Below are positions 3-40,717 of a stretch of 64,000 bases of DNA, one piece after another. The position numbers and the translations under genes were made by a program. The DNA is taken from the IMG/VR virus record IMGVR_UViG_3300045391_006539. One strand, given 5' to 3'. How positions within the stretch are numbered: the stretch's first letter is position 1; every line of letters starts with the position of its first letter. The stretch is from a virus. Lineage: Duplodnaviria; Caudoviricetes. A model generated the notes under the pieces. That model saw only the letters and a list, made by a program, of their open reading frames with translations, searched no databases and was not told the DNA's origin.

Positions 3-779
3 CAGAGCGAGCAGGTGCAGAGCGGCAACGCTGGTACGGGTCTCGAAACCAATGACGACATGATGCACGGCGAGCAGCCGGTGGAACCCATCAAGAACGC
101 CTCGGCCTTGGTGCAGGCCAACCTGGCCAAGGTGTCCTCGGCACTCGGCGCGGCCATGGGTGTGCGCAACGCCGTGCGCAATACGGCCGTCGATGCCGTC
201 TCCAAGGGCAAGGCCCTTGGTCAGAAGGGTGTCGACTGGGCGAAGGCCAACCCCAAGAAGGCCATCGGCATCGGCGCAGGCGCCGCGGCCGTGGGCGGTG
301 GTGCTGCTCTCGCCTCGCGCAAGAAGGAGGGCTCCGCCCCCATCGCGCTCATCCGGAAGCTGGCGGAAGATGCCATCAATCCGGCGCACATCGACTCACC
401 AGCGAGCGTCAACCCCGCCGAGCCCCCGCCTGGTGCGAGCGCGAGCGAAGAGGGCGTGCCGAGCGAGCCCGGTGACGTGACCAGCCAGAAGCGGATGATT
501 GCCTCCAACCAGGCAGCCATCGACTACACGAAGCGCGAGGCCAAGGCAGACCCCAAGAAGGACGTCGCCCAGGTCGTGACCGAGCCGCCGCTGTCGAGCA
601 CGACGGACAAGGTGCTCGAGCAGGCCTTCGATGCCACGGGTCAGGCCGGCGTGAAGATTTCGTCGGCGGGTGGTCTGCGCAAGACCGCCATGCAGGTGAG
701 CGCCCAGCGCGTCATCCTCGACCGCTTGCTCAAGCAGGCGAGCGCCGACGTGGAGAAGTCCCAGGGCGCGAGCGCCTGA
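3..779 (+). CDS. 5'-truncated Ala/Gly-rich head-region protein with K-x-A motifs (putative internal head/scaffold protein)
   Basis: Frame is open to the window edge; motifs RKLAE, RKTAM, LKQAS; Gly-zipper AIGIGAGAAAVGGGAALAS; lies upstream of capsid genes. Confidence 0.6.
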   Translation, partial: QSEQVQSGNAGTGLETNDDMMHGEQPVEPIKNASALVQANLAKVSSALGAAMGVRNAVRNTAVDAVSKGKALGQKGVDWAKANPKKAIGIGAGAAAVGGGAALASRKKEGSAPIALIRKLAEDAINPAHIDSPASVNPAEPPPGASASEEGVPSEPGDVTSQKRMIASNQAAIDYTKREAKADPKKDVAQVVTEPPLSSTTDKVLEQAFDATGQAGVKISSAGGLRKTAMQVSAQRVILDRLLKQASADVEKSQGASA

Positions 780-793
780 GCGAAGGAGGTCAA

Positions 794-1150
794 ATGGACA
801 AGCAGAGTGCAGCCAAGGTCGCGCAGGTGCTCCAAGAGGCGGGGGAGACCATCCTCAGCCTGAGTGCCGAGCGTGACAAACTGGCTTCCGAGAACGCGGC
901 CTACAAGCGCCGTGAGGAAGCCACCAAAGTCGCGAGTGTGCTCCACGACAAGGGCATCGACCGTGACATGGAGTTTCCCGAGCTGGTATCGAAGCTCGAG
1001 AAGGAAGCAGAGGCAGGCCGTCTCCCAGAGATTGCCCGCGCTGCAGAGTGGATTGGTCCACAGATGAGCTTCGGCTCCACCAATCACGACGAGAACGTTG
1101 GTTCGGGTGGCGACATGCTGACCAACTACCTCGTTGGTTCTGTCGGCTAG
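794..1150 (+). CDS. Putative capsid scaffolding/assembly protein
   Basis: SD AAGGAGG at 783-789; helical coiled-coil character; DKLAS/TKVAS motifs; two genes before the MCP. Confidence 0.5.
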   Translation: MDKQSAAKVAQVLQEAGETILSLSAERDKLASENAAYKRREEATKVASVLHDKGIDRDMEFPELVSKLEKEAEAGRLPEIARAAEWIGPQMSFGSTNHDENVGSGGDMLTNYLVGSVG

Positions 1151-1718: not shown

Positions 1719-2834
1719 ATGGTTTCAGGTCGCATGCTCAACGAGTCCTTTGCTCAGAAGCTGAACACGGCTGATGGCAAAGAGAAAGTCGCCGAATTCG
1801 GCGGCGCCTACATCCGGGACAAGCTGCGCGAGGTTTCCTTCGTGCGCAAAATCATCCCCCCGGAGAACGTGACGCGCGCGGATTGCCAGCGCTCCGTCAA
1901 CCACGACACGCTCGTGAAGATTGTCGATATCGAGCCCAAGAGCCGCGCGATGACGGTGACCTTCCGTGGCGCTCCGTCGGCTCGCTTCATCCGCGGCGAC
2001 CGCGCCGAGGTGGCCTTCTTCACCATCTCCAGCGAGATGTTCCAGAAGACCGAGCAGGAGCTCCTCGCCTACGAGATGCCCATCACGAAAATCATCGAGG
2101 AGAACTCGGTGAAGGACATCCAGGAAATCGAGGACCGCGAGTTCGTCATCCACATCGAGGCGGCAGTCCAGGCGCTGCAGACCGAGGCCAACAGCGGCAC
2201 CCCGGCGGCGCTGGCAGCGAGCACCATCGGCACGACGGTGGAGTTCTCCATCATCAAGGGCGAGCTCGCCCGCGCCGATTCGGCAGACACGGCGACGGTG
2301 CAGCCCATCCAGCGGCCCGACATCGTCAACCTGTTCAAGCTGCTCGACACCAACCGTCTGCGTTGTGAGCGCCTGCTCATGACGGAGCCGGACTGGGACG
2401 ACCTGCTGCAGTGGACGGTCGAGGACTTCGGCGACAAGATTCAGTCCGAGACGGCCATCGATGGCTACAAGTACAACACGGTGCTGGGGCGGCCTTACAT
2501 CCGCACCATCAAGACGGACATCCTGCGTCCGGGCAACGTGTATGCCTTCACGAAGCCGGAGTTTTTCGGGAAGTTCTACGTCCTGAACAACACCAAGTTC
2601 TACATCGACAAAGTCGCGAACACCATCACGTTTCAGGCGTGGGAAGACATCGCGATGTCGGTCATCAACGTGGCGTCCGTGCGCAAGCTGGAGCTCTACT
2701 CCGGCAATGCCAACCCGAACGCGGGTAACCAGAGCCTCATCGCCAACTTCGTGCCGGTGGACGAAGACCAGCTCGGCGCAGTGAACAACCGCGTGAGCGC
2801 CGGCCTCAAGTTCCCGTCGGTGACCCAGTACTGA
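1719..2834 (+). CDS. Major capsid protein (HK97 fold, inferred)
   Basis: 371 aa, very strong codon bias, SD, followed by a terminator; IRDKLRE.SF.RKI.PP N-arm and KDIQEIEDREF spine-helix-like segment; precedes neck/sheath/tube genes. Confidence 0.8.
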   Translation: MVSGRMLNESFAQKLNTADGKEKVAEFGGAYIRDKLREVSFVRKIIPPENVTRADCQRSVNHDTLVKIVDIEPKSRAMTVTFRGAPSARFIRGDRAEVAFFTISSEMFQKTEQELLAYEMPITKIIEENSVKDIQEIEDREFVIHIEAAVQALQTEANSGTPAALAASTIGTTVEFSIIKGELARADSADTATVQPIQRPDIVNLFKLLDTNRLRCERLLMTEPDWDDLLQWTVEDFGDKIQSETAIDGYKYNTVLGRPYIRTIKTDILRPGNVYAFTKPEFFGKFYVLNNTKFYIDKVANTITFQAWEDIAMSVINVASVRKLELYSGNANPNAGNQSLIANFVPVDEDQLGAVNNRVSAGLKFPSVTQY

Positions 2835-5119: not shown

Positions 5120-5581
5120 ATGGCACTCGCATTTCGAAAGTTCTCTCGGCTCGAGCACGCGACGTCGTTTCTCCAGGGTCACCTCGTCGGAAGCGTGAGC
5201 TTGCTGCGCAATGGCAACTCGCTCTATTTGCATGGCAAGACCCTCATCTTCACGACGCCGAGCGCCACGGTGACGTTCGATGCGACTCCCGATGGCACGC
5301 AGATTCCTCTCACGCTCGCGCAGGTGAAGTCCCAAATCGAGGCGGGCGCGTCGGGCGTGACGTGCCACTTTAGCGAAGGCCGGCTCGACCTGTTCATGGC
5401 GACGCCCGGGTCTATCGCGCTCGACAAGGACGGCACGGCCAATGCCCAGCTCGGCTTCAGTACGACGGCGGACAGCTCGGCGGCGGTCTATGCCGCGCCG
5501 GGTGGGTCTGCGCCAGCGCTCGTCCAGATTGTCCCGGACACGGGCAGCAACTCCTTCGTGGTGGTGACCGATGATGCATGA
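5120..5581 (+). CDS. Putative structural protein with a sheath-insertion-like module
   Basis: GKTLIF..ATVTF..LTLAQVKSQIEA..ANAQLGF resembles the repeats in the sheath ORF. Confidence 0.5.
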   Translation: MALAFRKFSRLEHATSFLQGHLVGSVSLLRNGNSLYLHGKTLIFTTPSATVTFDATPDGTQIPLTLAQVKSQIEAGASGVTCHFSEGRLDLFMATPGSIALDKDGTANAQLGFSTTADSSAAVYAAPGGSAPALVQIVPDTGSNSFVVVTDDA

Positions 5582-8318
5582 GTTCGAACGCGCCCTTTCC
5601 CGCAGTATTCCTCTCGGGGTCTCCGCTGGCTTCTTCCACCGCATCAAGACGGCGGGCTGGGGGGAACCACCGGATGAGACGGGCGCCCTCGAAGGCGCCT
5701 TTGCCGCGCCCATCGAGCAGGTCATCGCCAAGCTCACCGAAGTGGCGGCGGCGAAGTTCCAGCTGATGGTGGCCTACCATGTCTACGCCGAGAGCATGCG
5801 GGGCGTGGCGCAGCATGCCTGCGCCGAGGTCTTCCACGAGCACGCCGAGCAGGAGCGCGCGGCCGGTGAGGCTTACCTCAAACGCACGGCCGTGCTCGGC
5901 AGTGGCCCCGTCCACCTACCCGAGGTGACGACGCCGCCGGCGAGTGCAGACCCGGCGGGCATTCTCATGCTGCTCGCCCGCGCCGAGCAAGAGGCGATTG
6001 CCGCCCAGCGCGAGCTCAAGGCGCTCGTCGGGGAGGACAACCCCCTCTCGTTCCAAATCGAGCAATTCATGGTCGAGGACCAGCACCACCTCGACGAGTG
6101 CTGGCAGATGCTGCCGCAGGACGCCGTTCGTACGCCAGTCATCGACACGGCCCCTGCCGGTATGGTAGAGGCACCAAACGTCGAGGAGGAGACTCCGGCG
6201 CCTGTCGAGGCTCCCGCAGTGCCGAAGTCTCCGTCCAAGACTGCCGGCGCCCTCGCGAACATCGAGAAGACCGTCTTTGACGGCAAGCGTCTCGGAGCCA
6301 AGCCCTTCCAGTCCTTCAATGCTTTCGGCACGCCGAGCAAAGAGGTGCTGATGGCGCTACCGGCAGGTGGCGCAGCCGTGGGCGCGGGTCTAGGCTCGCT
6401 CAGGTCTCTCGTACAGAGCCCCGAAGACAAGGAGCAAGTCCTCGAAACGGGCGGCCCCGTCAGTCAGTTCAAGACTCGGCACCCCGTCATCGCGGGTGCT
6501 CTCGGCGGCGCAGCCCTCGGCGGCAGTGCTGCGCTCGCAGCCAAGGGCCTCATGCGTGGCCGCTCGCCACTCGACCCTACGGGTGGCGTGAAGCCGGCGA
6601 GCGTGCCGCATCTCGTGGGTGGTGCGGGTCTATTCGCAGCGCCATCGGCGGTGGGCATCGTCGACGAGGCACTCGCCCGGAAGCGGGACGAGGCGCTCGC
6701 CAAGAGCGCGAGCATTGCCGAGCTCGGGCGCAAGATGCGTCGTGGTCTGGGGCGCTACGGCGAGCTCGTCTCGGGGAGCAACGCACGGCGCATGGGTCGC
6801 GCGGCACAAAATGCGATGCTCGACGCGCAGCGGGTGGCTGGAAGGGGCGTCGACCAGGCAGCGCGCAGGGGCAAGCACCACGTGCGAACCCACGGCGAGG
6901 AAATCGTTGGTGAGTTCAAGCGTCGCATGGGCAAGGCGACCGAGCTCGGGGACGCGGCGGTCAAGGAGTACGACCTCTCGCGCAAGGTTCAAATCGGTAC
7001 GGGTGCCGGCGCCGTGGGCGCGCTCGGTACGGCCGCGGCCGCCAAGAACCGCTCGGACATGAAGAAAATCGAGCGCACGAATCAGCGGCTCAAGACCGCT
7101 TTCGTCGTCGCGCTCGAGAAGCTCGCCCTCGCTCCGAGCGAGCCTGGCTTTGGCAGCGACCCGTCGGCGGCGCCCATGCCCGGCAACGAGCCCTCGTTCG
7201 TGCCCCAGCCCAGCATGGAAGCCCCCGGTCCCCAGCCGCCCATGGCGCAGCCGCCGGGCACGGGGCAGTACGCTCCGGTCAACTATCTCGAGGCGGAGCT
7301 CACGGGGCGTCGCGTGCAGGAAGCCAACGAGGCCAACTTCTACCGCGCCAAGGCGGACGAGGCGAGCACGCAGGTCGCCAGTATGGGCGAGCAGGTGCAG
7401 TCCATTCAGGGTCAGCTCGACCAACTCTCGGCGCAGGCTGCCGAGAGCCAGTCGCAAATCATGGCCGCCAACGAGGAGGCCATGCGCGCGAACGACCAGA
7501 TGCTCAACCAGGCGACCCTCGCTGCGCGCATGCGCATGGGCATGCAACAGCTACGCGCCCAGATGATGGAAGTCGCGAGCCAAGACCCCGAGCAGCTGGC
7601 AGCGGCTGCCGGTGGCCCGACGCCGATGGACGTCGGACAACAAGCACAGATGGCGGGCGCTCCGGCGGCGGCCCCTGCGGGTTCTCCTGAGGGAGCGTCA
7701 GACCCGACGGGTGGCGCCGGCGGAGCGCCACCGGGTGCTCCGGCAGAGCCCGGTGCAGACCCGGGAACGCCAGCAGCCTCACCCGACCCGGGTGCACCCC
7801 CAGGCTCGCCGTCGGCGGGTGCGGGTGGCCCTCCAGGCGGTGGTGGCGGTGAGGGTGGCGAATCGCAGAAGAGCGACGGCGGTGAGTCGACCGACAAGAA
7901 GAAAGACACTGCCGAGACCACCGTGTCCATCAAGAAGGGCTCGGCGAAGACGGCCGGTCTCATGAACATGCCGAACATGGAGCAGGAGCTCCGGCACATG
8001 GCACCCTACGTTGCTGCTGGCGTGGGCCTCGGTGGGCTCGCGGGCGCGTACGAGGGCTATCACGAGGGGGACAAGGTTCCGAACCTGCAGAAGCGCGTGA
8101 GTGAGCTGCAGGGGACGTTCGGCAAGTCGCTCGAGCTCGCACAGACCCAGGTCGAGCTGGCGAAGGCGGAAGAGGCACGCGCCAACCCGGGCAAGAGCGC
8201 CCTGCGTGGGGGTCTTCGTGGTGCGGCCATCGGCATGACGGCGGGTGCCATCACTCCGCAGGCCATCGGCGGCGTGCGTGAGCTCGGCAAACACATCAAG
8301 CACCTGAGGGCAAACTAA
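5571..8318 (+). CDS. 915-aa multidomain K-x-A protein: N-terminal ferritin-like four-helix domain, Gly-zipper segments, coiled coil
   Basis: Residues ~48-181 follow bacterioferritin helix spacing (Y..Y, HEHAEQE, LKR..VLG, AEQEAI, EDQHHLD); at least 7 K-x-A sites. Confidence 0.65.
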   Translation: MMHEFERALSRSIPLGVSAGFFHRIKTAGWGEPPDETGALEGAFAAPIEQVIAKLTEVAAAKFQLMVAYHVYAESMRGVAQHACAEVFHEHAEQERAAGEAYLKRTAVLGSGPVHLPEVTTPPASADPAGILMLLARAEQEAIAAQRELKALVGEDNPLSFQIEQFMVEDQHHLDECWQMLPQDAVRTPVIDTAPAGMVEAPNVEEETPAPVEAPAVPKSPSKTAGALANIEKTVFDGKRLGAKPFQSFNAFGTPSKEVLMALPAGGAAVGAGLGSLRSLVQSPEDKEQVLETGGPVSQFKTRHPVIAGALGGAALGGSAALAAKGLMRGRSPLDPTGGVKPASVPHLVGGAGLFAAPSAVGIVDEALARKRDEALAKSASIAELGRKMRRGLGRYGELVSGSNARRMGRAAQNAMLDAQRVAGRGVDQAARRGKHHVRTHGEEIVGEFKRRMGKATELGDAAVKEYDLSRKVQIGTGAGAVGALGTAAAAKNRSDMKKIERTNQRLKTAFVVALEKLALAPSEPGFGSDPSAAPMPGNEPSFVPQPSMEAPGPQPPMAQPPGTGQYAPVNYLEAELTGRRVQEANEANFYRAKADEASTQVASMGEQVQSIQGQLDQLSAQAAESQSQIMAANEEAMRANDQMLNQATLAARMRMGMQQLRAQMMEVASQDPEQLAAAAGGPTPMDVGQQAQMAGAPAAAPAGSPEGASDPTGGAGGAPPGAPAEPGADPGTPAASPDPGAPPGSPSAGAGGPPGGGGGEGGESQKSDGGESTDKKKDTAETTVSIKKGSAKTAGLMNMPNMEQELRHMAPYVAAGVGLGGLAGAYEGYHEGDKVPNLQKRVSELQGTFGKSLELAQTQVELAKAEEARANPGKSALRGGLRGAAIGMTAGAITPQAIGGVRELGKHIKHLRAN

Positions 8319-9097
8319 TGCTGGACGCATTTCTGGAAGTCGCGTGTGGCCGTGAGAAGATGGCCGCGCAGAAGACCCGCAACATGGAGCTGCTCGGCAA
8401 GCTCCCGACCGAGACCCTGCAGAAGATTGCCTGCGGCGGACTCGGCGGGTACGGTGGAGAAGGCTGGCTCGAGAAGTTCCAGGGCAGTCCCTTGCTCGGA
8501 CAGGCCATCGCCATCGAGAAGGAAGAACTCGCCATCCAGATGGAGGAAAGTCAGCGGCGTGCTCGCGAGCGCGAGGTGCGAGAGAGCATGGGCTCGTGGG
8601 AAGACACGGCGGCCAAGCGCGACGAGCTCGCCGTCAAGCGACGTCTTTTGGAACTCGAGCTGGTGGGCGGACCCTCCGCTGTCAGCCCCGCGCCGGCTGT
8701 CGAGGAAGACCCGGGGCTCGAGCCCGAGCTCGCTGCTCCCGCCGAAGACCCGGCGGTCGATGTTGCCCCGAGTGAGGGGGCAGCAGCTCCGCCGAAGGGT
8801 CTACGCCCTCACTCCACGGAGGTGGGGAACGGTGGCGCAGACCCGGGTGCGGAGGTAGACACACCCGAGACCGACCCGAGTGAGGCGGCAGACCCACCGA
8901 AGCCCAAGCCCAAAGCCGAGGCCAAGGAGAAGACTGTCGAGAAGACCACCGAGAAGCCGGTGCCGGAGAAGATTGACGTCAAGACCTCTGAGAAGGAGGC
9001 GGCTGCGCGCTTCAAGTTCGCTGCGGCTCGCTTGCGCTTCTCTCAGGCCGTGAAGGAGGCGCAGCCCGCGAACGGGCAGCGTCCCTTTCACCGCTGA
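8318..9097 (+). CDS. K-x-A head-region protein (short form)
   Basis: TAATG overlap start; EKMAA, QKIAC, EKEAA, FKFAA motifs. Confidence 0.65.
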   Translation: MLDAFLEVACGREKMAAQKTRNMELLGKLPTETLQKIACGGLGGYGGEGWLEKFQGSPLLGQAIAIEKEELAIQMEESQRRAREREVRESMGSWEDTAAKRDELAVKRRLLELELVGGPSAVSPAPAVEEDPGLEPELAAPAEDPAVDVAPSEGAAAPPKGLRPHSTEVGNGGADPGAEVDTPETDPSEAADPPKPKPKAEAKEKTVEKTTEKPVPEKIDVKTSEKEAAARFKFAAARLRFSQAVKEAQPANGQRPFHR

Positions 9098-9848
9098 GAA
9101 GACCGCCGGCGTCGCCGCTCCCGCCACGGGTCTCCGTCGGGGGCTGCAGCTCATCTCGGGCAGCCGTCTCGGGCAGCTCGAGCAGGCAGCGGCGCAGCGG
9201 GGCGCGGTGGCCGCGCGGCAGTCGGGTCTCGCCAACCACCACTACCGGGGCGCCTTCCACGCCGCCGACGAGGCGGCGAGCAGCCGCCTCTACCAGCGCT
9301 CGCTCACGAGTGCTCGGGGCTCGGCTCGGACCCATGGTGCCGCCGAGCGCGCCCAGCGCGCGCTCGGGGCGGAGCGGGCCGCAGTGCAGGGCGCTCGGGG
9401 TACGGCGCTTCGGGCTGCTGGCGCCGGGGCGCTCGGGGTGGGTGGAGGTGCGATGGGCATGAACGCCGCCGAGGGTGGCCCCAAGCTCGCGAGCCCCCTG
9501 ACGGCCACCGTGGCCTCGGGCAAGCGCCTGGTCTCGGGGGCGGTCGACGCCCTCGGGAGCACCATGGCAGCGGCTCCCAAGGCCATCTCGGGCGTCGTGC
9601 CCAAGGCGGTCGCCAGCGAGGCAGCGACCGCCGCGGGTAGCCGGCAGGCGGCGCGCGCCGTGGCGAACGAGCGTCGGGTGGCGCAGGCTGCTCGAGCAGC
9701 GGCACCCCCCGTGCCACCACCGGCCGCACCGGTGGCAGCCCCGGCCCTCGACCCGCGCGCTCGCGCACGGCGCATCATCGGCGGCGTGGGTCTCGGGGGT
9801 CTCGGTCTCGGCGCGGTCGCCGCCCACGGTCAACCCGAGGCACGCTGA
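9083..9848 (+). other. Candidate +1 frameshift site CCC-TTT-C and extension frame (fusion ~509 aa)
   Basis: +1 frame open 9054-9848 with no ATG/GTG/TTG before 9207; reads F-T-A-E-K-T-A-G right after the site. Confidence 0.5.
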
Positions 9849-9851
9849 GAC

Positions 9852-10748
9852 GTGGCCATCGGCATCTCCGTCGACGACGTGGTCGTGCGTTCCCTGGACG
9901 TCGACCACTTCGAAGTCTCCTGGAAGCTCAAGCCGACGAGTCAGGACATTCTGGACTACACGTTCCAGGTCCTGCGCTCGGAGGCGGCGATGGGTCCCTT
10001 CGAAGCGGTCTCGGCGGAGATGGACGACCGGTTCTTCTTTGTCGACAACCGCATCGCCAGCGGCAACGACTTCCGGCAGTGGTTCTACACCATCCGGGTC
10101 AAGGACAAGCAGTCGGGCGACACCAAGGACTTCGGTCCCGTCTCGCCCGGTGCTGACGCAGACCTCATCGCCGCGGAGCTGCGCAAACACATCAACCTGC
10201 TGATGCAGGAGTTCATCGGGCGCAGGTGCTGGGTCTTCCCCGTACGCACCTTCGGTCAACGCTGCTCGTGCTGGAACCCGACGTTGCAGAAGCGCACGCG
10301 GAGCCACTGCCTCACTTGCTACGATACGGGCTTCGTGCGCGGCTATATGACGCCCATCGAAGTCTGGGCCAGCATCGACCCGGATACGAAGAACGAGCAG
10401 AACATGACGCTGGGTCCGACCCAGCAGAGCAACACCTCGGCGAAGCTCGGCTTCTTCCCACCCGTCAAACCGCGCGACGTCATCGTCGAGGCGGAGAACA
10501 TTCGCTGGCGCATCGTGACCGTGGGTGGGACCGAGCAGGTGCGTGCCCAAGTGCACCAGGAAATCACCCTGCACAAGATTCCCTCGACGGACATCGAGTA
10601 TCGACTACCACTCGACCCGGGCGGCGCGCTGCAGAACTTGTGGCTCTCGCCACCTCGGAACTTCAGCAACCCCCACAACTATGAGGGCTTCACGTCCGAG
10701 GACTACATCAACGCCCAGCGTCTATACACCTCGCGGTTCCCCCAGTGA
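9852..10748 (+). CDS. Putative head-closure/neck protein with Zn-ribbon insertion
   Basis: FN3-like N-terminus; RCSCW..HCLTCYDTGF..GY; PVKPRDVIVE..RWRIV barrel; between head and tail genes. Confidence 0.55.
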   Translation: MAIGISVDDVVVRSLDVDHFEVSWKLKPTSQDILDYTFQVLRSEAAMGPFEAVSAEMDDRFFFVDNRIASGNDFRQWFYTIRVKDKQSGDTKDFGPVSPGADADLIAAELRKHINLLMQEFIGRRCWVFPVRTFGQRCSCWNPTLQKRTRSHCLTCYDTGFVRGYMTPIEVWASIDPDTKNEQNMTLGPTQQSNTSAKLGFFPPVKPRDVIVEAENIRWRIVTVGGTEQVRAQVHQEITLHKIPSTDIEYRLPLDPGGALQNLWLSPPRNFSNPHNYEGFTSEDYINAQRLYTSRFPQ

Positions 10749-11134
10749 TGGACAAGTTTTCGCACTGCCTCGACGTTCTCTCCAAACTGGCGGAGCTCGC
10801 GCCCGACCCCATCAAACCGTCGCCGCCAGACCCGCAGATGCCCCCGGGTCGAGCGCTCAGCCTCGCCAAGACGCTCGGCGTCGGGACACTCGGCCTCGGT
10901 GCCGGTTATCTGGCGGGTGCAGGTCTCGGCAAGGGCATCGAGTACGTGATGGGGCAGCAAGGTGAGAATCCGGCCAGTGCTGCACGCGTCATCGCGCCCG
11001 TGGCGGGCGCCGCCGCCGGTATCATCTATCCTCTCTGGAAGGAACGGGAGCAGCAGGTGCTCCGTCAGGCGGTAGAAAAACGACATGCCTACGAGAGTGC
11101 ACGAAACCAAAACAGGGGCAGGCTTCCCGGGTAG
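10745..11134 (+). CDS. Small K-x-A / Gly-zipper protein
   Basis: FSHCLDVLSKLAE leader; two Gly/Ala hydrophobic segments. Confidence 0.55.
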   Translation: MMDKFSHCLDVLSKLAELAPDPIKPSPPDPQMPPGRALSLAKTLGVGTLGLGAGYLAGAGLGKGIEYVMGQQGENPASAARVIAPVAGAAAGIIYPLWKEREQQVLRQAVEKRHAYESARNQNRGRLPG

Positions 11135-12057: not shown

Positions 12058-15000
12058 ATGAGCGTCCAGCTTGCGCAGCCAGGGGTAGAAATCATCCAGG
12101 AGTTTCAGGCTGCGAGTCCCAGCATCATCACGCCGGCGCTCTTGCCCAACGTGGTCGGTGTCGCCAAGCAAGTCGTGGGACTCAATGTCTCCGACGGTGC
12201 GGGTGGTACGACGCTCAACCCGGACGCGCTACTCCAGCTGCCTGCGCAGTTCACGGCACTCGCCGGTAGCGGTAACCCCAAGGTCTACTCGGGACTCGAT
12301 GGTCTCGACCTGGTTTTCTCCGTCAACAACGGCGTCGACATCACAGTCACCTTTGCGGGCAGCAGTCTGTCCGTCGACGACGTGGTGGCACAGGTCAACG
12401 CGGAACTCACGAGCTCGGGTGTCTCGAGCGTCATCGCCGAGACCTTGGGTGATGAGGGCAACTGGACCCTGCGCACCATCGGTACTGGGTCTTTCCAGAC
12501 CATCGTCGTCAAGGCGACGAGCGATTCGGCGGTGCTCACGGCCTTTGGCATTGGCGCAGGCAAGACCTACGCGGGACTCACTGTCTACAACCAGTACGAA
12601 GTGGTGGTGCCGCCAGCGAGTCTGCCCGACCCGCGTGACAACCTGGCAGAGCTCGCCGTCGAGCAGGACAGCATCCGGGTCTTCTTCTCGCTCGGCGGGT
12701 CCGCGGGGGTGTATGAAGCACTGCGCACCGAGGCCTTCCTCAAAAATGGCGAGGTCAATGATGCGGCCGTCATCACGGGCAACGTCTCGCTCGCAGGCCT
12801 GACCCTGCCGGGTGACATTGGTACGGGCACGTTGATGATTTCGGTCGATGGCGGCGCGGCCCAGACCGTCACTTTCAGCAACCCAGCCAACCCCGCCGCC
12901 ATCGTCAGCCAGATTGCCGGGCAGCTCACGGGTGCGACTCCGTCCCAGTCGGGCAACTTCCTGCGTCTCACGACGACGAGTCTCGGCGCCGATGCCTCCG
13001 TGACCATCACGGGCGGCTCGGTCGCGAGTACGCTCGGTGTCTCGGGTCTGACCGATACGGGCGAGAGCATCCAAGCCATCGACGACGGTGATGGTGATTC
13101 GCTCACGAGTCTGCTCAAGTTCTCGGCCGAGAGTTTCACGGCGAGCGCCACGGCGGCGGTGGTGAGTGCCTTCACGGCAGCGACCAATCCTGCCGATGGT
13201 ACGACCCTCATCCTCTCCGATGGTGGGCAGCCACAGACCATCGTCTTCGACGGCGTCGCGGCCTTTGCCGATATCCTCGCCCAAATCAACGCGGTGGTGG
13301 GCACGGTGGCAGGCGGCAAAATCACGGCGAGCGACGCGGGTTCGAGCAAGCTGCGCCTCACGCACTCGGACACGGGCAGCGACTCGGTCATCAAGATTCT
13401 GGGTGGCACGGCACTGTCTGCGCTCGACCCGAGTACCCCGACGCTGGTGGTCGGCACCTACCGGGGTACGGCCAACGTGCCACTGCCGGGTGATGCGCTC
13501 TACATCGATGGCGCTTTCTACGCCAACATCACTCAGGTGGCCCCGGGTGCAGTCGCGACCAACCTGAAAATCGACAAGCTCGTGCCGGTGAGCACGGACG
13601 TCGGCCGCTACTACTACATCGTGGCCAAGGGTCTACCGACGGCGAACCGTCCCGACCCCAATCTGGTGGTGGACGCAAACGGCAACGTCATCCTCAAGCC
13701 GGAGCAGTTGCGCGACGTCAACGGCAACCCGACGTCCGTGACGGCGCCGATGTACTTGTCCTACTCGGCGGTGCGCAAGGACGTCTCGGCGAGTGCCAAC
13801 CAGCCGGGTCTACTGGTCTTCGACGACACGGCTCAGCTCGAGGAAGTGCTCTCGCCGGTAGACTCGACCAACCCGCTCGCGCTCGGTCTGTTCTTCGCCC
13901 TGCTCAACGCACCCGGCGCGCAGGTGACGGGCCTCGGCGTGGATGAAATCAGCGACGATGCGCCCTACGGCACGCTCGACGCTTTCAGCCGCGCCGCGGG
14001 GTTTCTCGAGGGCAAGGAGGTCTACGCCATTGCGCCGTTGACCCACGACCCCTCGGTGCACCAGGTCTTCAACACCCACGTCTCGGTGATGAGCTCGCCC
14101 TCGAACAAGGCCGAGCGCGTCGCCATCATCAACGTCCAGACTCCGACCACCAAGCCTCACACGTTGGTGGCGAGCGGTGTCGGTGACCGTGCGAGCTCGA
14201 CTACGTTCGACACGGGTATCTCGAACCTGACGGCGCTGGTCTTGAACCAAGGCATCACGCCGACCGGCACCATCCCCGCCGATGAAGGTCTGTTCCTCGA
14301 CCTCGCGAGTGATGGCAACCGCTACTCCATCGAGAGCATCAGTGGTGACTCTGTCACCCTGCGCACGAGCTTCGACGCGGGCGAGAACGACGACGGGTTC
14401 TACACCGCTGCAAACCTCGCCTCGACCGTGGTGCAGACCGCCTTCACGGTCAGCGTCCGGGGTGCAGACCTCACCATCGCTGGACTGCCCGACCTCAATG
14501 GCATTGCCGACACGATTGCCACGACGGGTCGCGGCTATGGCAACCGCCGATTGTGGATGACGTTCCCCGACCAGGTGGGTGCGACCGTCAACGGGCTCGA
14601 GAGTCTGCTGCCGGGTTTCTACGCCTCGGCCGCCATCGCGGGCATGGTCGGGCAGCAGCCGCCGCAGCAGGGCTTCACGCGCTTCCCGATGGCTGGCTTC
14701 ACGCGTGTGGTGGGCAGCAACGACCGCTTCAGCACGACGCAGCTCAACGTGATGGCAGGTGGCGGCGCCTACATCCTCGTCCAGGAAGCCCCAGGCGCAC
14801 CCATCATCAGCCGCTTCGCCATCACGACGGACCTCACGTCCATCGAGGTGCGGGAGACCAGCATCACCCGCATCCTGGACTTCACGGCGAAGTTCTTGCG
14901 GCGCTCGCTGCTCAACTTCATCGGGCGCTTCAACATCACCCAGGGCTTCCTCGACACCCTCGGCAACGTCATCGAGGGTCTCGGCCAGTTCCTCATCGAG

Positions 15001-15132
15001 ACGGGCGTCCTGCTCGGCTTCAACCTGAACCAGATTCAGCAGGACAAGGACGCGCCGGACACGGTGCTCATCGATGTCACGGTCGAGGTGCCCTACCCCT
15101 GCAACTTCATCCGCCTGACGCTGGTCATCTGA
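12058..15132 (+). CDS. Contractile tail sheath protein
   Basis: N-terminal QPGVEIIQE; C-terminal SITRILDF..LR..FIGRFN..VEVPYPCNFIRLTLVI; SD AAGGAG. Confidence 0.85.
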   Translation: MSVQLAQPGVEIIQEFQAASPSIITPALLPNVVGVAKQVVGLNVSDGAGGTTLNPDALLQLPAQFTALAGSGNPKVYSGLDGLDLVFSVNNGVDITVTFAGSSLSVDDVVAQVNAELTSSGVSSVIAETLGDEGNWTLRTIGTGSFQTIVVKATSDSAVLTAFGIGAGKTYAGLTVYNQYEVVVPPASLPDPRDNLAELAVEQDSIRVFFSLGGSAGVYEALRTEAFLKNGEVNDAAVITGNVSLAGLTLPGDIGTGTLMISVDGGAAQTVTFSNPANPAAIVSQIAGQLTGATPSQSGNFLRLTTTSLGADASVTITGGSVASTLGVSGLTDTGESIQAIDDGDGDSLTSLLKFSAESFTASATAAVVSAFTAATNPADGTTLILSDGGQPQTIVFDGVAAFADILAQINAVVGTVAGGKITASDAGSSKLRLTHSDTGSDSVIKILGGTALSALDPSTPTLVVGTYRGTANVPLPGDALYIDGAFYANITQVAPGAVATNLKIDKLVPVSTDVGRYYYIVAKGLPTANRPDPNLVVDANGNVILKPEQLRDVNGNPTSVTAPMYLSYSAVRKDVSASANQPGLLVFDDTAQLEEVLSPVDSTNPLALGLFFALLNAPGAQVTGLGVDEISDDAPYGTLDAFSRAAGFLEGKEVYAIAPLTHDPSVHQVFNTHVSVMSSPSNKAERVAIINVQTPTTKPHTLVASGVGDRASSTTFDTGISNLTALVLNQGITPTGTIPADEGLFLDLASDGNRYSIESISGDSVTLRTSFDAGENDDGFYTAANLASTVVQTAFTVSVRGADLTIAGLPDLNGIADTIATTGRGYGNRRLWMTFPDQVGATVNGLESLLPGFYASAAIAGMVGQQPPQQGFTRFPMAGFTRVVGSNDRFSTTQLNVMAGGGAYILVQEAPGAPIISRFAITTDLTSIEVRETSITRILDFTAKFLRRSLLNFIGRFNITQGFLDTLGNVIEGLGQFLIETGVLLGFNLNQIQQDKDAPDTVLIDVTVEVPYPCNFIRLTLVI

Positions 15133-15140
15133 GGTCTTCG

Positions 15141-16355
15141 ATGCCCCAGAACACGGCACCCATCGCCCTCATCCGCAAGCTCGCGGCTGAGGGCGCGCCG
15201 GCGGAAGTCCCCGAGGGCTATGAGAAGCAGCTCGGCAAGGACTACCAGCGCACGCATCAGAAGCACGTTCAACGTACGGCTCTGCCCACGACCCTCGGTG
15301 CCCTCGGGGGCGCCATCGGTGGCGGTATCCTGAGCGAGCGGCTCACGCGCACGAAGCTGCCTGCGCTCGACTTCATGGGGCAAACGCTCTTACCCGAGTC
15401 CCACATCGCTGGTGACCCGTTCATCGGCGCGCTCGGTGGTGGCGTCATGGGCGGCGCGCTCGGTCATGCTGCAGCCCACCTCTCACCGGAGACCCGGAAA
15501 CTTCGCGACAAGATGCAGTCCATCCAGACCGAGCGTGACGCCCTTGGCGCACGTACGCCCGGGTCTACGACGGTCCTGACCGACGAGAACCTCGACCGGG
15601 ACCGGTACGGGGAGCTCCGTGCCGATGCAGCGCAGGCTCGCCTGAACCTCCGTGAGGCGGGCAAGCCCACACGCGTGGGCGCAGGGCTCGGCGCGCTCGC
15701 TGGGGCAGGTGCCGGTCTGCTCTCGGGTTATCGTGCCAGTGGTGGCAGAGCGTCAGAGATGGCGGCTCACGGACTCCTCGGAACGAGCTTGGGAATCGGC
15801 GCCGGCGCCATCGGCGGCTCGTTGGCCTCTGGACGCTCTTTTCCTCTGGCAATCAGGCGGCAAATCCAGACCGAGGAAGCCCGGCAGCGCTTCCGTCGGG
15901 GCGCGCAGACGCTCGACGCAGAGAAGGAAGCGGCCGCGCGCGCCAACTTCGACAGTCTCTTCGTGGGCCCAGACCCCACACTCGAGGAGACCATCGACGA
16001 GCTCAAGTTCGCGGCCATCGCAGACCCCGAGCTCTTGAAGGTGGCCTACGTGCTCGCCGAAGACGACTTGCTCACGACCTACGAGGCGCTCGGTGGCATC
16101 TACAAGGTCGCCTTTGGTCAGCAGATGTTCGACACGAAGCAGCTCGCGGGTAGTCCTGCCCTCGCCGGTGGCATGAACCAGCGCGCCTCGACCGCCACTC
16201 CCACGCTCGCCCAGCCGGGTGCTCAAGCGCCGCAGTCGCCAGCGGCCCCCAAGGTGCCCACCAGTCAGCCGTCACAGGGTTCGAGCGCTCCTTCTGCTGC
16301 TTCGGCGACGTCCGCACCGTCGACCCCCGGTGCCACGACAATCACCGTGGGTTGA
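15141..16355 (+). CDS. K-x-A / Gly-zipper protein between sheath and tube
   Basis: Start re-called to ATG 15141 (MPQNTAPIALIRKLAA); four GxxxG-type segments; LKFAA, LKVAY, YKVAF. Confidence 0.65.
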   Translation: MPQNTAPIALIRKLAAEGAPAEVPEGYEKQLGKDYQRTHQKHVQRTALPTTLGALGGAIGGGILSERLTRTKLPALDFMGQTLLPESHIAGDPFIGALGGGVMGGALGHAAAHLSPETRKLRDKMQSIQTERDALGARTPGSTTVLTDENLDRDRYGELRADAAQARLNLREAGKPTRVGAGLGALAGAGAGLLSGYRASGGRASEMAAHGLLGTSLGIGAGAIGGSLASGRSFPLAIRRQIQTEEARQRFRRGAQTLDAEKEAAARANFDSLFVGPDPTLEETIDELKFAAIADPELLKVAYVLAEDDLLTTYEALGGIYKVAFGQQMFDTKQLAGSPALAGGMNQRASTATPTLAQPGAQAPQSPAAPKVPTSQPSQGSSAPSAASATSAPSTPGATTITVG

Positions 16356-16378: not shown

Positions 16379-17134
16379 ATGGCCGGTAACTACAGTGATT
16401 GGGCTCCATACACCAACTACGTCCAGTCGGGTATGGTGGACGGGGCGTACGCGAACGCCGGGTTCACGCTGCTCGCCGCAGGCCCGCCACGCATCGCCAA
16501 CATCGGCGGTGCGGCTGCCTTTGCACAGTCCCTCAATGGGCAGGGGGCGAATCAAATCGTCTTCCCCATCGGCATCGTCCAGAACTTCAGCCTGAGCCAC
16601 AGCCGCAACTTCTCGCGCATCTTCGAGATTGGCTCCGAGCGCAGCTACTTCATCGGTGGCCGCACCATCGGGCAGCTGGGTCTGGCGCGCATCTACTACC
16701 ACGGTGCGTCTCTCCTGCGCGTGCTCTACGCGTACTACCAGGACCTCTTGCCGCCCACGGTGGTGCCGGCGATGTTCCCGAATGCGGGCGCGTCGGTGAT
16801 GAGCAACCCGCACGACGTGGTCATCCCTCCGGGATACGAGAACCTGTACATGAACCTGGCCTCGGACTTGTTCGCGCAGCCCGTGGGTATCATGATGTAC
16901 GTGCGTGACGTCAACCAGGACGCCCTGGGCGCGATGTACTTCGAGGCCTGCTACCTGCCGAATCACAACTGGCAGACCGACAGTCAGGGCGTGCTCATTC
17001 AGGAGAGCGTCTCGGTCCAGTTCGAGCGCGCGGTGCCCGTCGCCATCTCGGCGCTGCAGCTCATCTCGAGCGCCAACCAGAATGCGGGTGGCGCGAACCT
17101 CTCCGAGACCTTCATGGGCATCCCGCAGAGCTGA
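16379..17134 (+). CDS. Tail tube protein
   Basis: IGIVQNFSLSHSR..RIFEIGS and YFEACY..NW..GVLIQESVSVQFE tube-fold patterns; follows the sheath. Confidence 0.75.
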   Translation: MAGNYSDWAPYTNYVQSGMVDGAYANAGFTLLAAGPPRIANIGGAAAFAQSLNGQGANQIVFPIGIVQNFSLSHSRNFSRIFEIGSERSYFIGGRTIGQLGLARIYYHGASLLRVLYAYYQDLLPPTVVPAMFPNAGASVMSNPHDVVIPPGYENLYMNLASDLFAQPVGIMMYVRDVNQDALGAMYFEACYLPNHNWQTDSQGVLIQESVSVQFERAVPVAISALQLISSANQNAGGANLSETFMGIPQS

Positions 17135-39256: not shown

Positions 39257-40717
39257 ATGTCGTTCTCCTTTGCTATTGCGCTAGACAAGCTCGCTGACAT
39301 CTCGACCGAGCTCAAGGACTACCAGCAGCGGGTGGTCGAGCGCATACAGGAGAAGGGTCGCCCGGGGCTCGTGGTTGCCCACGGTCTCGGTACGGGTAAG
39401 ACCCTCTCTTCCATCGCAGCGCAGGACGCGCTCGAGACACCGGCGACGGTGGTGGTCCCCGCCGCACTCAAGGCGAACTACGAGAAGGAGCGGGCCCGAC
39501 ATCTGACGGGTAAGAAGCAGCCCATCAAGCTCGAGTCGCTGCAGAACGTGGCGCGTGCGGGTATCCCCAAGAGCCAGCTCCTCGTCGTAGATGAGGCCCA
39601 TCGGGGCCGAGACCCGGCGAGCGCCACCTTCAAGGCCATCCGAGATGCCAAAGCGGACAAGAAGATGCTGCTCACGGCCAGCCCCTTTTACAACAGCCCC
39701 CACGACCTCGCCCCGCTCATCAACGTGGCGGCGAACGAGCGGGTGCTGCCCAACGACAAGAAGGAGTTCGACGCCCGTTACACACGCTTCCGCCCAGTCT
39801 ATCCGAGTCTCTGGGGTCGGTTGCGGGGTGACAAACCTGGCGAGGTGCAGGAGCTCAACCCCCGTCGGCGTGGCGAGCTCAAGAGCATCTATGACAAGTG
39901 GGTGGACTACCAACCGGGTGGCACCGAGGGCTTTCCCACTGTCACACGTGAAGACGTGGATGTGCCCATGAACAGCGAGCAGCTCGGGGTCTACGACACG
40001 TTGATGGACACGGCGCCGAGCTGGGTCTCGCGCAAGGTGAAGAGTGGTCTGCCTCCCAGCAAGGCCGAGGCGACCCAGCTCAACGCCTTCCTCACCGGTG
40101 CGCGCCAGGCGAGTCTATCGACCGCACCATTCGTTCAGGGCGATACGAAAGTCCACGAAACCAAGATTCAAAAGGCCTTCGAGAACCTGCGGAAGGAGCT
40201 CGAGACCAACCCTGACGCGCGGGCCGTGGTCTATAGCAACTTCCTCCAGGGTGGCATCCGTCCCTATGCCAATCGCCTCACGGCCGCCGGCATTCCCTTT
40301 GGTGAGTACACGGGCGAGATTCCCAGGACCCAACGCGACCAGCTCGTTCGGGACTACAACGAGGGCAAGAAGAGGGTGATGCTGCTTTCGAGTGCGGGTG
40401 GAGAAGGCCTAGACCTCAAGGGCACGCGCCTCATGCAGGTACTGGAGCCGCATTGGAACCGAGAGAAATTACTCCAGGTCGAGGGTCGCGGCATTCGCTA
40501 TGGCAGCCACGAGCATCTTCCAGAGGACCAGCGCAACGTGCGCGTCCAGACCTATCGAGCCACGCGTCCTCGCCAGGGCTTGCTCGAGCACCTACACGTC
40601 AGCAAGCCGGGCGGTGGTGTAGACGAGTACCTGAGCACGCGCAGCAAGGAGAAGGAAGACTTGAACGAGCAGTTCCGGAGTCTCTTGGCTCAGCAGCGTG
40701 AAGATAAGCAGGGCTAG
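39257..40717 (+). CDS. SNF2-like superfamily 2 helicase with a K-x-A leader
   Basis: LKDYQ, HGLGTGKT, VVDEAH, LLTASP, SSAGGEGLDL, EPHWN..QVEGRGIR. Confidence 0.88.
   Translation: MSFSFAIALDKLADISTELKDYQQRVVERIQEKGRPGLVVAHGLGTGKTLSSIAAQDALETPATVVVPAALKANYEKERARHLTGKKQPIKLESLQNVARAGIPKSQLLVVDEAHRGRDPASATFKAIRDAKADKKMLLTASPFYNSPHDLAPLINVAANERVLPNDKKEFDARYTRFRPVYPSLWGRLRGDKPGEVQELNPRRRGELKSIYDKWVDYQPGGTEGFPTVTREDVDVPMNSEQLGVYDTLMDTAPSWVSRKVKSGLPPSKAEATQLNAFLTGARQASLSTAPFVQGDTKVHETKIQKAFENLRKELETNPDARAVVYSNFLQGGIRPYANRLTAAGIPFGEYTGEIPRTQRDQLVRDYNEGKKRVMLLSSAGGEGLDLKGTRLMQVLEPHWNREKLLQVEGRGIRYGSHEHLPEDQRNVRVQTYRATRPRQGLLEHLHVSKPGGGVDEYLSTRSKEKEDLNEQFRSLLAQQREDKQG

What the first reader, a model, noticed from the sequence alone, without database searches (positions are those of the whole stretch)
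5646..6248. Ferritin-like domain bracketed by two KTAG sites in a head-region polyprotein
Seen: residues ~48-181 (nt 5712-6113) follow the bacterioferritin four-helix pattern (AYHVY, FHEHAEQER, YLKRTAVLG, AEQEAIA, EDQHHLDE), flanked by IKTAG (5646) and SKTAG (6237). Some ferroxidase ligands look altered: K where helix A normally has Glu, and ERAA rather than ExxH in helix B. Inference: a ferritin/Dps-like module released inside an HK97-type capsid, echoing encapsulin ferritin cargo. It could bind metal, protect DNA or be injected to counter oxidative stress, or be a non-catalytic oligomeriser.
Basis: partly seen in the sequence, partly recalled or inferred. Interest (0 to 1): 0.75.

Follow-up and report, generated by a model that had tools for sequence, protein, structure and literature searches.

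The report
Ferritin-like module on phage structural protein
A large uncultured soil-type phage encodes, among its head and tail genes, a long modular protein that begins with a genuine ferritin-type iron-protein domain whose iron site has been partly dismantled; it belongs to a large undescribed phage family that may carry a mini-ferritin inside the virus particle, although packaging and cutting are not proven.

Summary

New here:
- The protein belongs to a large metagenomic family: 586 representative hits, 167 of them at E<=1e-30.
- The architecture is fixed: a roughly 28-residue leader ending in K-x-A, then the ferritin domain, then a variable tail.
- The gene position is fixed between the capsid gene and tail genes in all 36 related viral contigs of up to 185 kb.
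- 89 of 170 members keep all six di-iron ligands. The window protein sits in a derived clade with coupled changes (E62K, H98A/G/D, L102Y, W146Q, E170D), so it is probably not a ferroxidase.

Not shown: virion packaging, and cleavage at K-x-A. No head protease was identified; there is only a weak candidate. The generic K-x-A tripeptide is not enriched.

The scan noted the same family before on another genome (e1-5611647). I found no cultured phage homologue and no paper on it.

The parts
5571..8318 (+). 915-aa modular protein (P0001); its start overlaps the end of the upstream ORF 5120-5581
   Evidence: 37 close homologues and 586 profile hits
5571..5654 (+). Basic 28-residue leader (pI 10.7), family consensus ..IPL.EAA.FF.[KR][IL]K-x-A, ending in K26-T-A28
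   Evidence: Conserved in both clades of the family; some relatives have variable-length inserts directly after KTA
5646..5657 (+). KTAG site 1 (putative cleavage after A28)
   Evidence: K26 in 145 of 170 members, A28 in 114 of 170
5667..5702 (+). Conserved N-terminal tail PPDETGxLEGxF, which aligns with the N-terminal tail of DpsL PA4880
   Evidence: Invariant P34 D35 G38 L40 E41 G42 F44; alignment to PA4880 residues 22-36; VIA alignment to 8w1e covers model residues 21-185
5712..6110 (+). Ferritin-family four-helix bundle (residues 48-180). Ligand positions: K62, E95, A98, E139, D170, H173. Also Y69, H91, Y102, Q146, H172
   Evidence: clade comparison
6117..6236 (+). Acidic Pro/Ala-rich linker (pI 4.3), variable in length across homologues
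6237..6248 (+). KTAG site 2 (putative cleavage after A225), at an acidic-to-basic transition
   Evidence: K-x-A-[AGSF] at this boundary in 18 of 19 close homologues; charge step at the 95th percentile
6246..7091 (+). Basic module (pI 10.65) with four Gly/Ala-zipper hydrophobic segments (residues 259-277, 305-324, 348-364, 475-491)
   Evidence: conserved in only about 6-11 relatives
7089..7103 (+). LKTAF, the R-L-K-x-A-F site at a basic-to-acidic transition
   Evidence: Conserved as [NAE]RLK-x-A-[FM] in about 12 close homologues; charge step at the 97th percentile
7101..7955 (+). Acidic module (pI 4.3): coiled coil (Pfam LPP hit, residues 604-649, nt 7380-7517), then Pro/Ala/Gly low-complexity sequence and the conserved TTVSIKKGS block (7917-7943)
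   Evidence: the coiled coil is shared by about 68 family members
7947..7958 (+). KTAG site 3
   Evidence: K-x-A-[GD] follows TTVSIKKGS in about half of the close homologues and is absent from the others
7956..8315 (+). Basic C-terminal module (pI 9.4) with two further Gly-zipper segments
1719..2834 (+). Major capsid protein; the N-terminal G-K-E-K-V-A-E contains a K-x-A
   Evidence: phrog_2522; 30% identity to the Arash major capsid protein gp226; K-x-A kept in all 36 aligned orthologues plus Arash and D69
794..1150 (+). 118-aa helical scaffold-like protein with K-x-A at residues 8, 29 and 45
   Evidence: A-E-K-[VL]-A at residues 45-47 kept in 26-27 of 27 orthologues

Best explanation
P0001 is a modular protein of the structural gene block of an uncultured phage of about 200 kb, distantly related to Salmonella phage Arash.

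Shown:
- Its N-terminal 185 residues are a conserved 28-residue basic leader ending in K-T-A, then a DpsL-like tail, then a ferritin-family four-helix bundle of the bacterioferritin / DpsL / mini-bacterioferritin type.
- This unit is the only part conserved across a family of several hundred metagenomic proteins.
- The gene always sits between the capsid gene and the tail genes.
- Half of the family keeps the complete E / ExxH / E / ExxH di-iron site. The window protein belongs to a derived clade in which the site was remodelled by coupled changes (E62K, H98A, L102Y, W146Q, E170D). The four ligands of one metal position are kept (E95, E139, D170, H173).

Inferred:
- The protein is loaded into the prohead.
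- A still unidentified head protease cuts it after K-x-A at 28/29 and 225/226, and probably near 510 and 795.
- This frees a 21-kDa acidic ferritin-like module next to basic Gly-zipper modules.
- In relatives with the intact site, the module would oxidise and sequester Fe2+ inside the capsid or just after ejection, protecting the packed DNA as Dps and DpsL do in cells.
- In this phage the module has most likely lost ferroxidase chemistry and persists as a single-metal-binding or purely structural (oligomerising) domain.
For: Fold and family.

Family size and fixed architecture: the domain starts near residue 35 of proteins 450-1150 aa long. Only residues 1-185 are conserved family-wide.

Ligand census: EEHEEH in 89 of 170 members and K-E-[AGD]-E-D-H in about 68. 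The K-type forms essentially one clade: its common ancestor holds 79 tips, 74 of them K-type, with support 0.86. Coupled changes include loss of the aromatic W146, which is 100% conserved in the canonical clade.

Structural-module context:
- Synteny in 36 of 36 IMG/VR loci.
- The capsid protein is homologous to that of Arash.
- The flanking genes are orthologues of Arash gp222 and gp234, both detected in Arash virions (PMC10585845 Table 2, read).

Cleavage-type evidence:
- KTAG occurs 3 times against 0.037 expected, and [RK][LIVF]K.A twice against 0.13.
- Sites 1 and 2 are positionally conserved.
- The sites coincide with module boundaries and charge reversals.
- K-x-A is also conserved at the capsid protein N-terminus and in the scaffold-like protein.

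Precedent: BFVD holds uncultured-phage proteins named 'prohead protease' or 'Dps' of 290-763 aa with the same fold.

Activity of the closest solved relative, Pa DpsL: a 12-mer that oxidises Fe2+ with O2 or H2O2 (PMC11150526).
Against: - There is no virion proteome for any member, and no homologue in 50,697 cultured-phage records.
- No recognisable head protease: Pfam S78, S77 and ClpP give nothing in five near-complete relatives. The one candidate has a poor model and no sequence-level support.
- The generic K-x-A tripeptide is not enriched in this protein or in the N-termini of the window's proteins (p = 0.18). The motif carries little information, and a K-R-A-A also sits buried in helix B of most homologues.
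- Site 3 (KTAG at residue 793) is missing from about half of the close homologues.
- The family leader profile finds no second protein in the window, so a shared targeting signal is not demonstrated.
- Arash and Vibrio phage D69 lack the gene, so it is not essential to this virion type.
- Enrichment z-scores across homologues are inflated by shared ancestry.
Confidence: 0.5

Rival explanations
1. The protein is an uncleaved virion protein, either ejected or tape-measure-like. It stays in one piece. The ferritin-like bundle serves as an N-terminal oligomerisation hub. The Gly-zipper segments and coiled coil insert into or span the host envelope during infection. The K-x-A motifs are helix-capping or interaction motifs, not cleavage sites.
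For: - Six Gly/Ala-zipper hydrophobic segments plus a coiled coil.
- Very weak PHROG hits to tape-measure proteins, E 0.4-0.8.
- No protease found.
- Generic K-x-A is not enriched.
Against: - The gene lies upstream of, not after, the sheath/tube-like genes.
- Family length ranges from 450 to 1150 aa with almost no tail conservation. That fits shuffled modules better than a length ruler.
- Exact KTAG occurs three times and [RK][LIVF]K.A is enriched at module boundaries.
- The PHROG hits are not significant.
Confidence: 0.2
2. The protein is a late protein that is not part of the virion. It is a membrane-anchored ferritin-like protein of the infected cell that manages iron or peroxide during replication, for example to supply or protect phage iron enzymes. 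It happens to be encoded in the late structural operon.
For: - The hydrophobic Gly-zipper segments could be membrane anchors.
- Stand-alone Dps/ferritin genes with no shown virion role are common in phages.
- Arash and D69 virion modules do without this gene.
Against: - The position inside the capsid-to-tail block is invariant in 36 of 36 contigs, co-oriented and overlapping its neighbours.
- A conserved cleavable-looking leader is not a signal peptide: it is basic and helical with no hydrophobic core.
- The alternating acidic and basic modules are typical of internal head proteins. This last point is inference from general knowledge of T4 and phiKZ-type phages.
Confidence: 0.12
3. The window protein is still an active metalloenzyme. 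The remodelled site (E95, E139, D170, H173 plus the clade-specific H172, Y102, the conserved H91, and K62) forms a new dinuclear or mononuclear catalytic centre with different chemistry.
For: - The four remaining ligands are almost invariant within the K-type clade.
- The substitutions are coupled and conserved rather than random decay.
- The domain is under strong purifying selection, with 71% mean column identity.
Against: - Two of the four ligands of one iron position are lost.
- The aromatic residue invariant in the canonical clade (W146) is lost.
- A lysine now points at the site, which commonly substitutes for a metal charge (inference).
- Pfam scores drop from 62-66 bits in canonical members to 38 bits here.
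Confidence: 0.12

Closest known systems
Dps-like (DpsL) proteins: P. aeruginosa PA4880 (8w1d/8w1e; PMC11150526), S. solfataricus DPSL (2clb), B. fragilis thioferritin (2vzb)
   Same: - Best sequence match among solved structures (profile E 6e-8).
- Four-helix bundle with the metal site inside one subunit.
- Family members with the canonical site have exactly the bacterioferritin-type ligands of DpsL.
   Different: - This is a domain of a 915-aa phage structural-module protein, not a free protein of about 170 aa.
- Two ligands are replaced in the window protein.
- There is no conserved DPSL cysteine pair.
- The model shows no short helix in the B-C loop.
- 12-mer assembly is untested.
Mini-bacterioferritin (9qq4; PMC13168243) and B. 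anthracis ferritin-like protein 2qqy
   Different: - Sequence identity is only 16-20%.
- The position after E95 is Arg, not the Met that ligates haem in bacterioferritin-type proteins.
- The domain is fused to a leader and a long tail.
Encapsulin ferritin-like cargo (Flp/EncFtn, IMEF; review PMC11202242)
   Same: A ferritin-superfamily protein associated with an HK97-fold shell. The idea is that the shell encloses an iron-oxidising cargo.
   Different: - The shell here is the capsid of a tailed phage of about 200 kb.
- Loading, if it occurs, would use an N-terminal leader and proteolysis rather than a C-terminal cargo-loading peptide.
- The domain is a full four-helix subunit, unlike the two-helix EncFtn.
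- No homology of the targeting system was found.
Capsid-targeted, protease-processed internal head proteins (T4 IPI-III/Alt with the capsid-targeting sequence and gp21; phiKZ/SPN3US head proteins, PMC10052503, PMC5694885)
   Same: A short N-terminal leader ends in a short recurring motif. The same motif recurs at module boundaries and in the capsid and scaffold-like proteins. Acidic and basic modules alternate.
   Different: - The motif would be K-x-A, not (L/I)-x-E or (S/A/G)-x-E.
- The protease is unidentified.
- Neither cleavage nor packaging has been observed.
- This comparison rests partly on general knowledge of those systems.
Stand-alone phage Dps/ferritin-like proteins (for example SU10 'DNA-binding protein', Bacillus phage G gp346, Lactobacillus phage LP65 orf120; BFVD hits)
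   Same: Ferritin or Dps fold encoded by tailed phages.
   Different: - These are free-standing proteins of 150-240 aa from other sequence families (Foldseek E 3e-3 to 9e-2).
- They are not fused to a leader and tail.
- They are not fixed between capsid and tail genes.

Membership tests
Ferritin-like domain (Pfam PF00210) | Profile score above the curated gathering cut-off | tested here: met
   38.2 bits for the whole protein and 42.4 bits for residues 1-240, against a cut-off of 24.5
Ferritin-like domain (Pfam PF00210) | Four-helix bundle with a long B-C crossover loop | tested here: met
Ferroxidase-active ferritin/bacterioferritin/DpsL | Six intrasubunit di-iron ligands: E (helix A), ExxH (B), E (C), ExxH (D) | tested here: not met
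   The window protein has K62, E95-x-x-A98, E139, D170-x-x-H173. The full set is present in 89 of 170 family members
Bacterioferritin | Haem-ligating Met directly after the helix-B Glu (E. coli Bfr M52, from general knowledge) | tested here: not met
   R96 follows E95. Other family members have R, M, Q, T, K or H at this position, and it is not conserved
DpsL (Dps-like) | N-terminal tail preceding helix A | tested here: met
   Residues 33-47 are conserved and align with PA4880 residues 22-36; the VIA alignment to 8w1e covers model residues 21-185
DpsL (Dps-like) | Short helix in the B-C loop (Dps fold, PMC11150526) | tested here: inconclusive
   DSSP shows no helix at residues 111-127 of the model, but a predicted loop is weak evidence
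DpsL (Dps-like) | Dodecameric cage | not testable with these tools
   This needs SEC-MALS or cryo-EM of the isolated module
DPSL thioferritin subgroup | Conserved cysteine pair near the metal site | tested here: not met
   C84 and C177 of the window protein are not conserved in homologues
Encapsulin cargo | C-terminal cargo-loading peptide and an adjacent encapsulin shell gene without portal or tail genes | tested here: not met
   The domain is N-terminal in a 915-aa protein. The neighbouring shell gene is the capsid gene of a tailed phage of 180-200 kb with sheath/tube-like genes
Protease-processed, capsid-targeted head proteins (T4 CTS type) | Conserved N-terminal leader ending in the motif that also recurs in the capsid and scaffold proteins | tested here: met
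   Leader conserved in both clades; K-x-A conserved at the capsid protein N-terminus and in the scaffold-like protein
Protease-processed, capsid-targeted head proteins (T4 CTS type) | A head maturation protease encoded by the phage | tested here: inconclusive
Protease-processed, capsid-targeted head proteins (T4 CTS type) | Presence of the processed protein in virions | not testable with these tools
   No cultured member exists. Only the neighbouring orthologues are virion proteins in Arash

The most novel reading that the evidence does not exclude
A widespread clade of uncultured phages of 170-200 kb loads a DpsL-type mini-ferritin into its capsid as protease-released cargo. This would be a viral counterpart of encapsulin ferritin cargo that detoxifies Fe2+ and peroxide next to the packed genome or on entry. 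The window's sub-clade has then converted the di-iron centre into a new single-metal or metal-free site with a different role.
Probability: 0.35. Interest if true: 0.8.

Novelty: new variant of a known kind. Interest (0 to 1): 0.62.

Why it matters
Ferritin-family proteins are known as free cellular cages and as encapsulin cargo. Enzymes packed in phage heads are known too. A ferritin-type domain as the one conserved unit of a phage structural-module protein has not been described in the papers I could search.

If the module is packaged, phage capsids would carry their own iron and peroxide defence. That would give a concrete link between HK97-fold capsids and encapsulin-style iron cargo, an idea raised only as speculation in PMC13669383.

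The family also offers a natural experiment. One clade has an intact di-iron site and a sister clade has five coupled substitutions. This is directly testable with two recombinant proteins.

Tried and rejected
1. Homodimer prediction of residues 36-186: no verdict. The score was 0.35 against a mark of 0.42. It is not evidence either way.
2. Cultured homologues: tblastn of the whole protein and of residues 1-200, and megablast of 12 kb, against 50,697 phage records found nothing. Arash gp229, which occupies a similar position, is unrelated.
3. Head protease hunt:
   - PHROG, Pfam and PDB searches of the upstream genes found nothing.
   - The fold of the conserved 567-aa protein was poor, pLDDT 56.7. 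Foldseek found nothing.
   - Profile against PDB and hhalign against T4 gp21 gave nothing.
   - Pfam S78, S77 and ClpP gave no match in five relatives.
4. A genome-wide 'K-x-A code': the generic tripeptide is not enriched in this protein or in the N-terminal 40 residues of 65 window genes (p = 0.18). Only longer forms (KTAG, [RK][LIVF]K.A) and positional conservation carry weight.
5. A shared leader: a profile of the family leader found no other protein in the window or in L001. The resemblance I saw to the N-terminus of the 567-aa protein (..IPL..[FY]F.K.TA..) is therefore unsupported.
6. The window's own genome is not held. The contig of P0001 could not be fetched, so upstream genes were read from the syntenic relative L001.
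7. Literature searches for phage ferritin or Dps in virions or fused to a prohead protease found no relevant paper.
Full report
**What is there.** ORF 5571-8318 (+) encodes a 915-residue protein, P0001. The finding's coordinates run from the first KTAG (nt 5646) to the end of the second (nt 6248).

The region between the two KTAG sites is a genuine ferritin-family domain:
- Pfam PF00210 matches residues 52-180 at 38-42 bits, against a curated cut-off of 24.5.
- A profile of 36 homologues hits the Dps-like protein PA4880 (8w1d) at E 6e-8, and then DPSL 2clb, thioferritin 2vzb, M-ferritins, 2qqy and mini-bacterioferritin 9qq4.
- An AlphaFold2 model built on 37 homologues has mean pLDDT 85.5, with four helices at 48-75, 79-110, 128-153 and 158-180 and a long B-C loop.

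**The metal site.** Residue-by-residue alignments to PA4880 map the six bacterioferritin-type ligands as follows:

| Canonical ligand | Window protein |
|---|---|
| Helix A Glu | K62 |
| Helix B ExxH | E95 kept, His replaced by A98 |
| Helix C Glu | E139 |
| Helix D ExxH | D170 (for Glu), H173 |

Two of the four ligands of one iron position are gone. The four ligands of the other position are kept, with one Glu changed to Asp.

**The family.** A word-indexed search found 36 homologues of 600-1060 aa, all with PF00210, on contigs of up to about 200 kb. A full HMMER search of 1.84 billion cluster representatives with the domain profile gave 586 hits at E<=1e-3, 285 at E<=1e-10 and 167 at E<=1e-30. 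In nearly all of the top 150, the domain starts near residue 35 of a protein 450-1150 aa long.

In an alignment of 170 members, 89 have all six canonical ligands (EEHEEH). About 68 share the window protein's pattern, K-E-[A/G/D]-E-D-H. On a tree of the domain, the K-type is essentially one clade: its common ancestor holds 79 tips, 74 of them K-type, with support 0.86 and 4 parsimony changes.

Positions that separate the two clades at 75% or better are E62K, L102Y, R104K, W146Q and E170D, along with loss of H98. W146 is 100% conserved in the canonical clade. It aligns with a Tyr of PA4880, which suggests a redox-relevant aromatic residue that the K-clade dropped.

Canonical members also score higher on Pfam Ferritin (62-66 bits) and hit Rubrerythrin. 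I read this as an ancestral, probably active ferroxidase domain whose site was remodelled once, in the lineage leading to the window phage. The direction of change is inferred from the canonical state of cellular relatives. The tree was midpoint-rooted only.

**Architecture.** Only residues 1-185 are conserved family-wide. The tail is shared by 6-20 relatives, except a coiled coil at about 576-675 that is shared by about 68.

The leader is conserved in both clades, with consensus ..G-I-P-L-x-E-A-A-x-F-F-x-[KR]-[IL]-K-x-A. Some members carry variable-length inserts directly after K-T-A. K26 is present in 145 of 170 members and A28 in 114 of 170.

In P0001 the modules alternate in charge:

| Module (residues) | pI |
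|---|---|
| Leader, 1-28 | 10.7 |
| Ferritin plus linker, 29-225 (21 kDa) | 4.6 |
| 226-510, four Gly/Ala-zipper segments | 10.65 |
| 511-795, coiled coil plus Pro/Ala/Gly-rich sequence | 4.3 |
| 796-915 | 9.4 |

**The K-x-A sites.**
- Exact KTAG occurs three times in P0001 (residues 26, 223, 793) against 0.037 expected, and [RK][LIVF]K.A twice against 0.13.
- Site 2 is positionally conserved in 18 of 19 close homologues, as K-[ET]-A-[AGS] or as a K-x-A-F..K-L-A-G pair.
- An R-L-K-x-A-F site near residue 508 is conserved in about 12 homologues. Site 3 follows a conserved TTVSIKKGS block, but only in about half of them.
- Sites 223 and 508 fall on the strongest charge reversals of the protein, at the 95th and 97th percentiles.
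- K-x-A is also conserved at the N-terminus of the capsid protein in all 36 aligned orthologues. It is present, shifted by two residues, in Arash and Vibrio phage D69. It is conserved as A-E-K-[VL]-A in the 118-aa scaffold-like protein in 26-27 of 27 orthologues.

Against this, the bare tripeptide K-x-A is not enriched in P0001 (8 observed, 7.2 expected). It is not enriched in the N-termini of 65 window genes (p = 0.18). A K-R-A-A also lies buried in helix B of most homologues. The z-scores over 37 homologues (KTAG 19 observed against 1.2 expected) are inflated by common descent. The pattern is what a maturation-protease motif would look like, but cleavage is inferred, not shown.

**Context.** The capsid protein (1719-2834, phrog_2522) is about 30% identical to the major capsid protein of Salmonella phage Arash and to proteins of Vibrio phages D69, D181 and D148. 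These are the only cultured relatives.

In 36 of 36 IMG/VR loci, the gene order is: scaffold-like gene, p173, capsid gene, p181, p153, ferritin gene, p259, p298, p296, p1024. Those contigs reach 185 kb; three of the five whole records examined (177-185 kb) have terminal repeats and four are estimated 100% complete.

The flanking genes have orthologues in Arash (gp222, gp234) and in D69, including a sheath-sized protein. Arash gp222, gp226 and gp234 were detected in purified virions (PMC10585845, Table 2). Arash and D69 lack the ferritin gene and its Gly-zipper neighbours, so this is a clade-specific insertion into a structural module.

**The protease.** No known head-protease family was found. 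One candidate is a 567-aa protein just upstream of the head genes (L001:1002-2705). Its orthologue in the window's genome is P0182, and it is homologous to Arash gp222.

Evidence for the candidate:
- It is very conserved, with more than 1,363 homologues, and sometimes carries inteins or a pyrophosphatase fusion.
- It has invariant His117/His118 and Ser174 in alignment with the Arash and D69 proteins.

**Interpretation.** The most likely reading (confidence about 0.5) is an internal head protein. It would be loaded through its leader and cut at K-x-A, leaving an acidic 21-kDa ferritin-like module in the particle.

The closest solved relative, Pa DpsL, is a 12-mer that oxidises Fe2+ with O2 or H2O2 and stores Fe3+; it also nicks DNA in vitro (PMC11150526). 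For family members with the intact site, an in-capsid or entry-stage iron and peroxide detoxifier is therefore the natural hypothesis. For the window protein the remodelled site argues for loss of ferroxidase chemistry and a metal-binding or structural role.

The rivals are:
- an uncleaved ejection or tape-measure-like protein (0.2);
- a non-virion membrane-anchored late protein (0.12);
- a new catalytic site (0.12).

**Novelty.** Automatic annotation had already labelled some members 'ferritin-like' or 'bacterioferritin'. BFVD lists ferritin-fold domains in uncultured-phage proteins named 'prohead protease' or 'Dps'. Earlier notes of this scan describe the same family on another genome (e1-5611647) and other head-associated phage Dps proteins.

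I found no paper describing it. A 2026 paper only speculates that procapsids might hold cargo-like enzymes (PMC13669383). I rate it a new variant of known kinds: a ferritin-family domain, and protease-processed head proteins.

Noticed in passing
window 336-365 and 15156-15185: The exact 10-residue peptide APIALIRKLA occurs twice. One copy is internal, in the 5'-open ORF 3-779, after a Gly-zipper segment. The other is at residues 6-15 of ORF 15141-16355. Both end in K-L-A followed by an acidic or Ala residue, like a reused leader or boundary element.
   Followed up: partly
L001:1002-2705 (syntenic relative; orthologue of the window genome is P0182, upstream of the window start): This 567-aa protein is at least 67% identical across more than 1,363 metagenomic proteins. 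Some copies are interrupted by inteins (PF14528/PF13403/PF14890) or fused to an InPase pyrophosphatase domain. It has invariant HH..NKD, S-M-G and CSIC..YCxH motifs. Its weak best structural match is T4 protease gp21. It is homologous to the Arash virion protein gp222.
   Followed up: partly
window 8318-9097, 9207-9848, 10745-11134: Three small neighbouring ORFs also carry Gly/Ala-zipper hydrophobic segments and K-x-A motifs. Together with the ferritin gene they form a cassette that Arash and Vibrio phage D69 lack between the p181 and p298 orthologues.
   Followed up: partly
window 12058-15132 and 16379-17134: The 1024-aa and 251-aa proteins are homologous to D69 proteins 0281 and 0282 (via their orthologues in the syntenic relative L001). 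They are probably the tail sheath and tube. No Pfam or PHROG family matches them.
   Followed up: no
window 43067-44089, 47689-49062, 39257-40717: Three proteins with Pfam matches: a GH5 cellulase-like protein (PF00150), a 457-aa protein with an InPase inorganic pyrophosphatase domain (PF18823), and an SNF2-type helicase.
   Followed up: no
family members P0041 and P0106 (tails): Some family members carry a DUF5661 domain (PF18905) in the variable tail after the ferritin domain.
   Followed up: no
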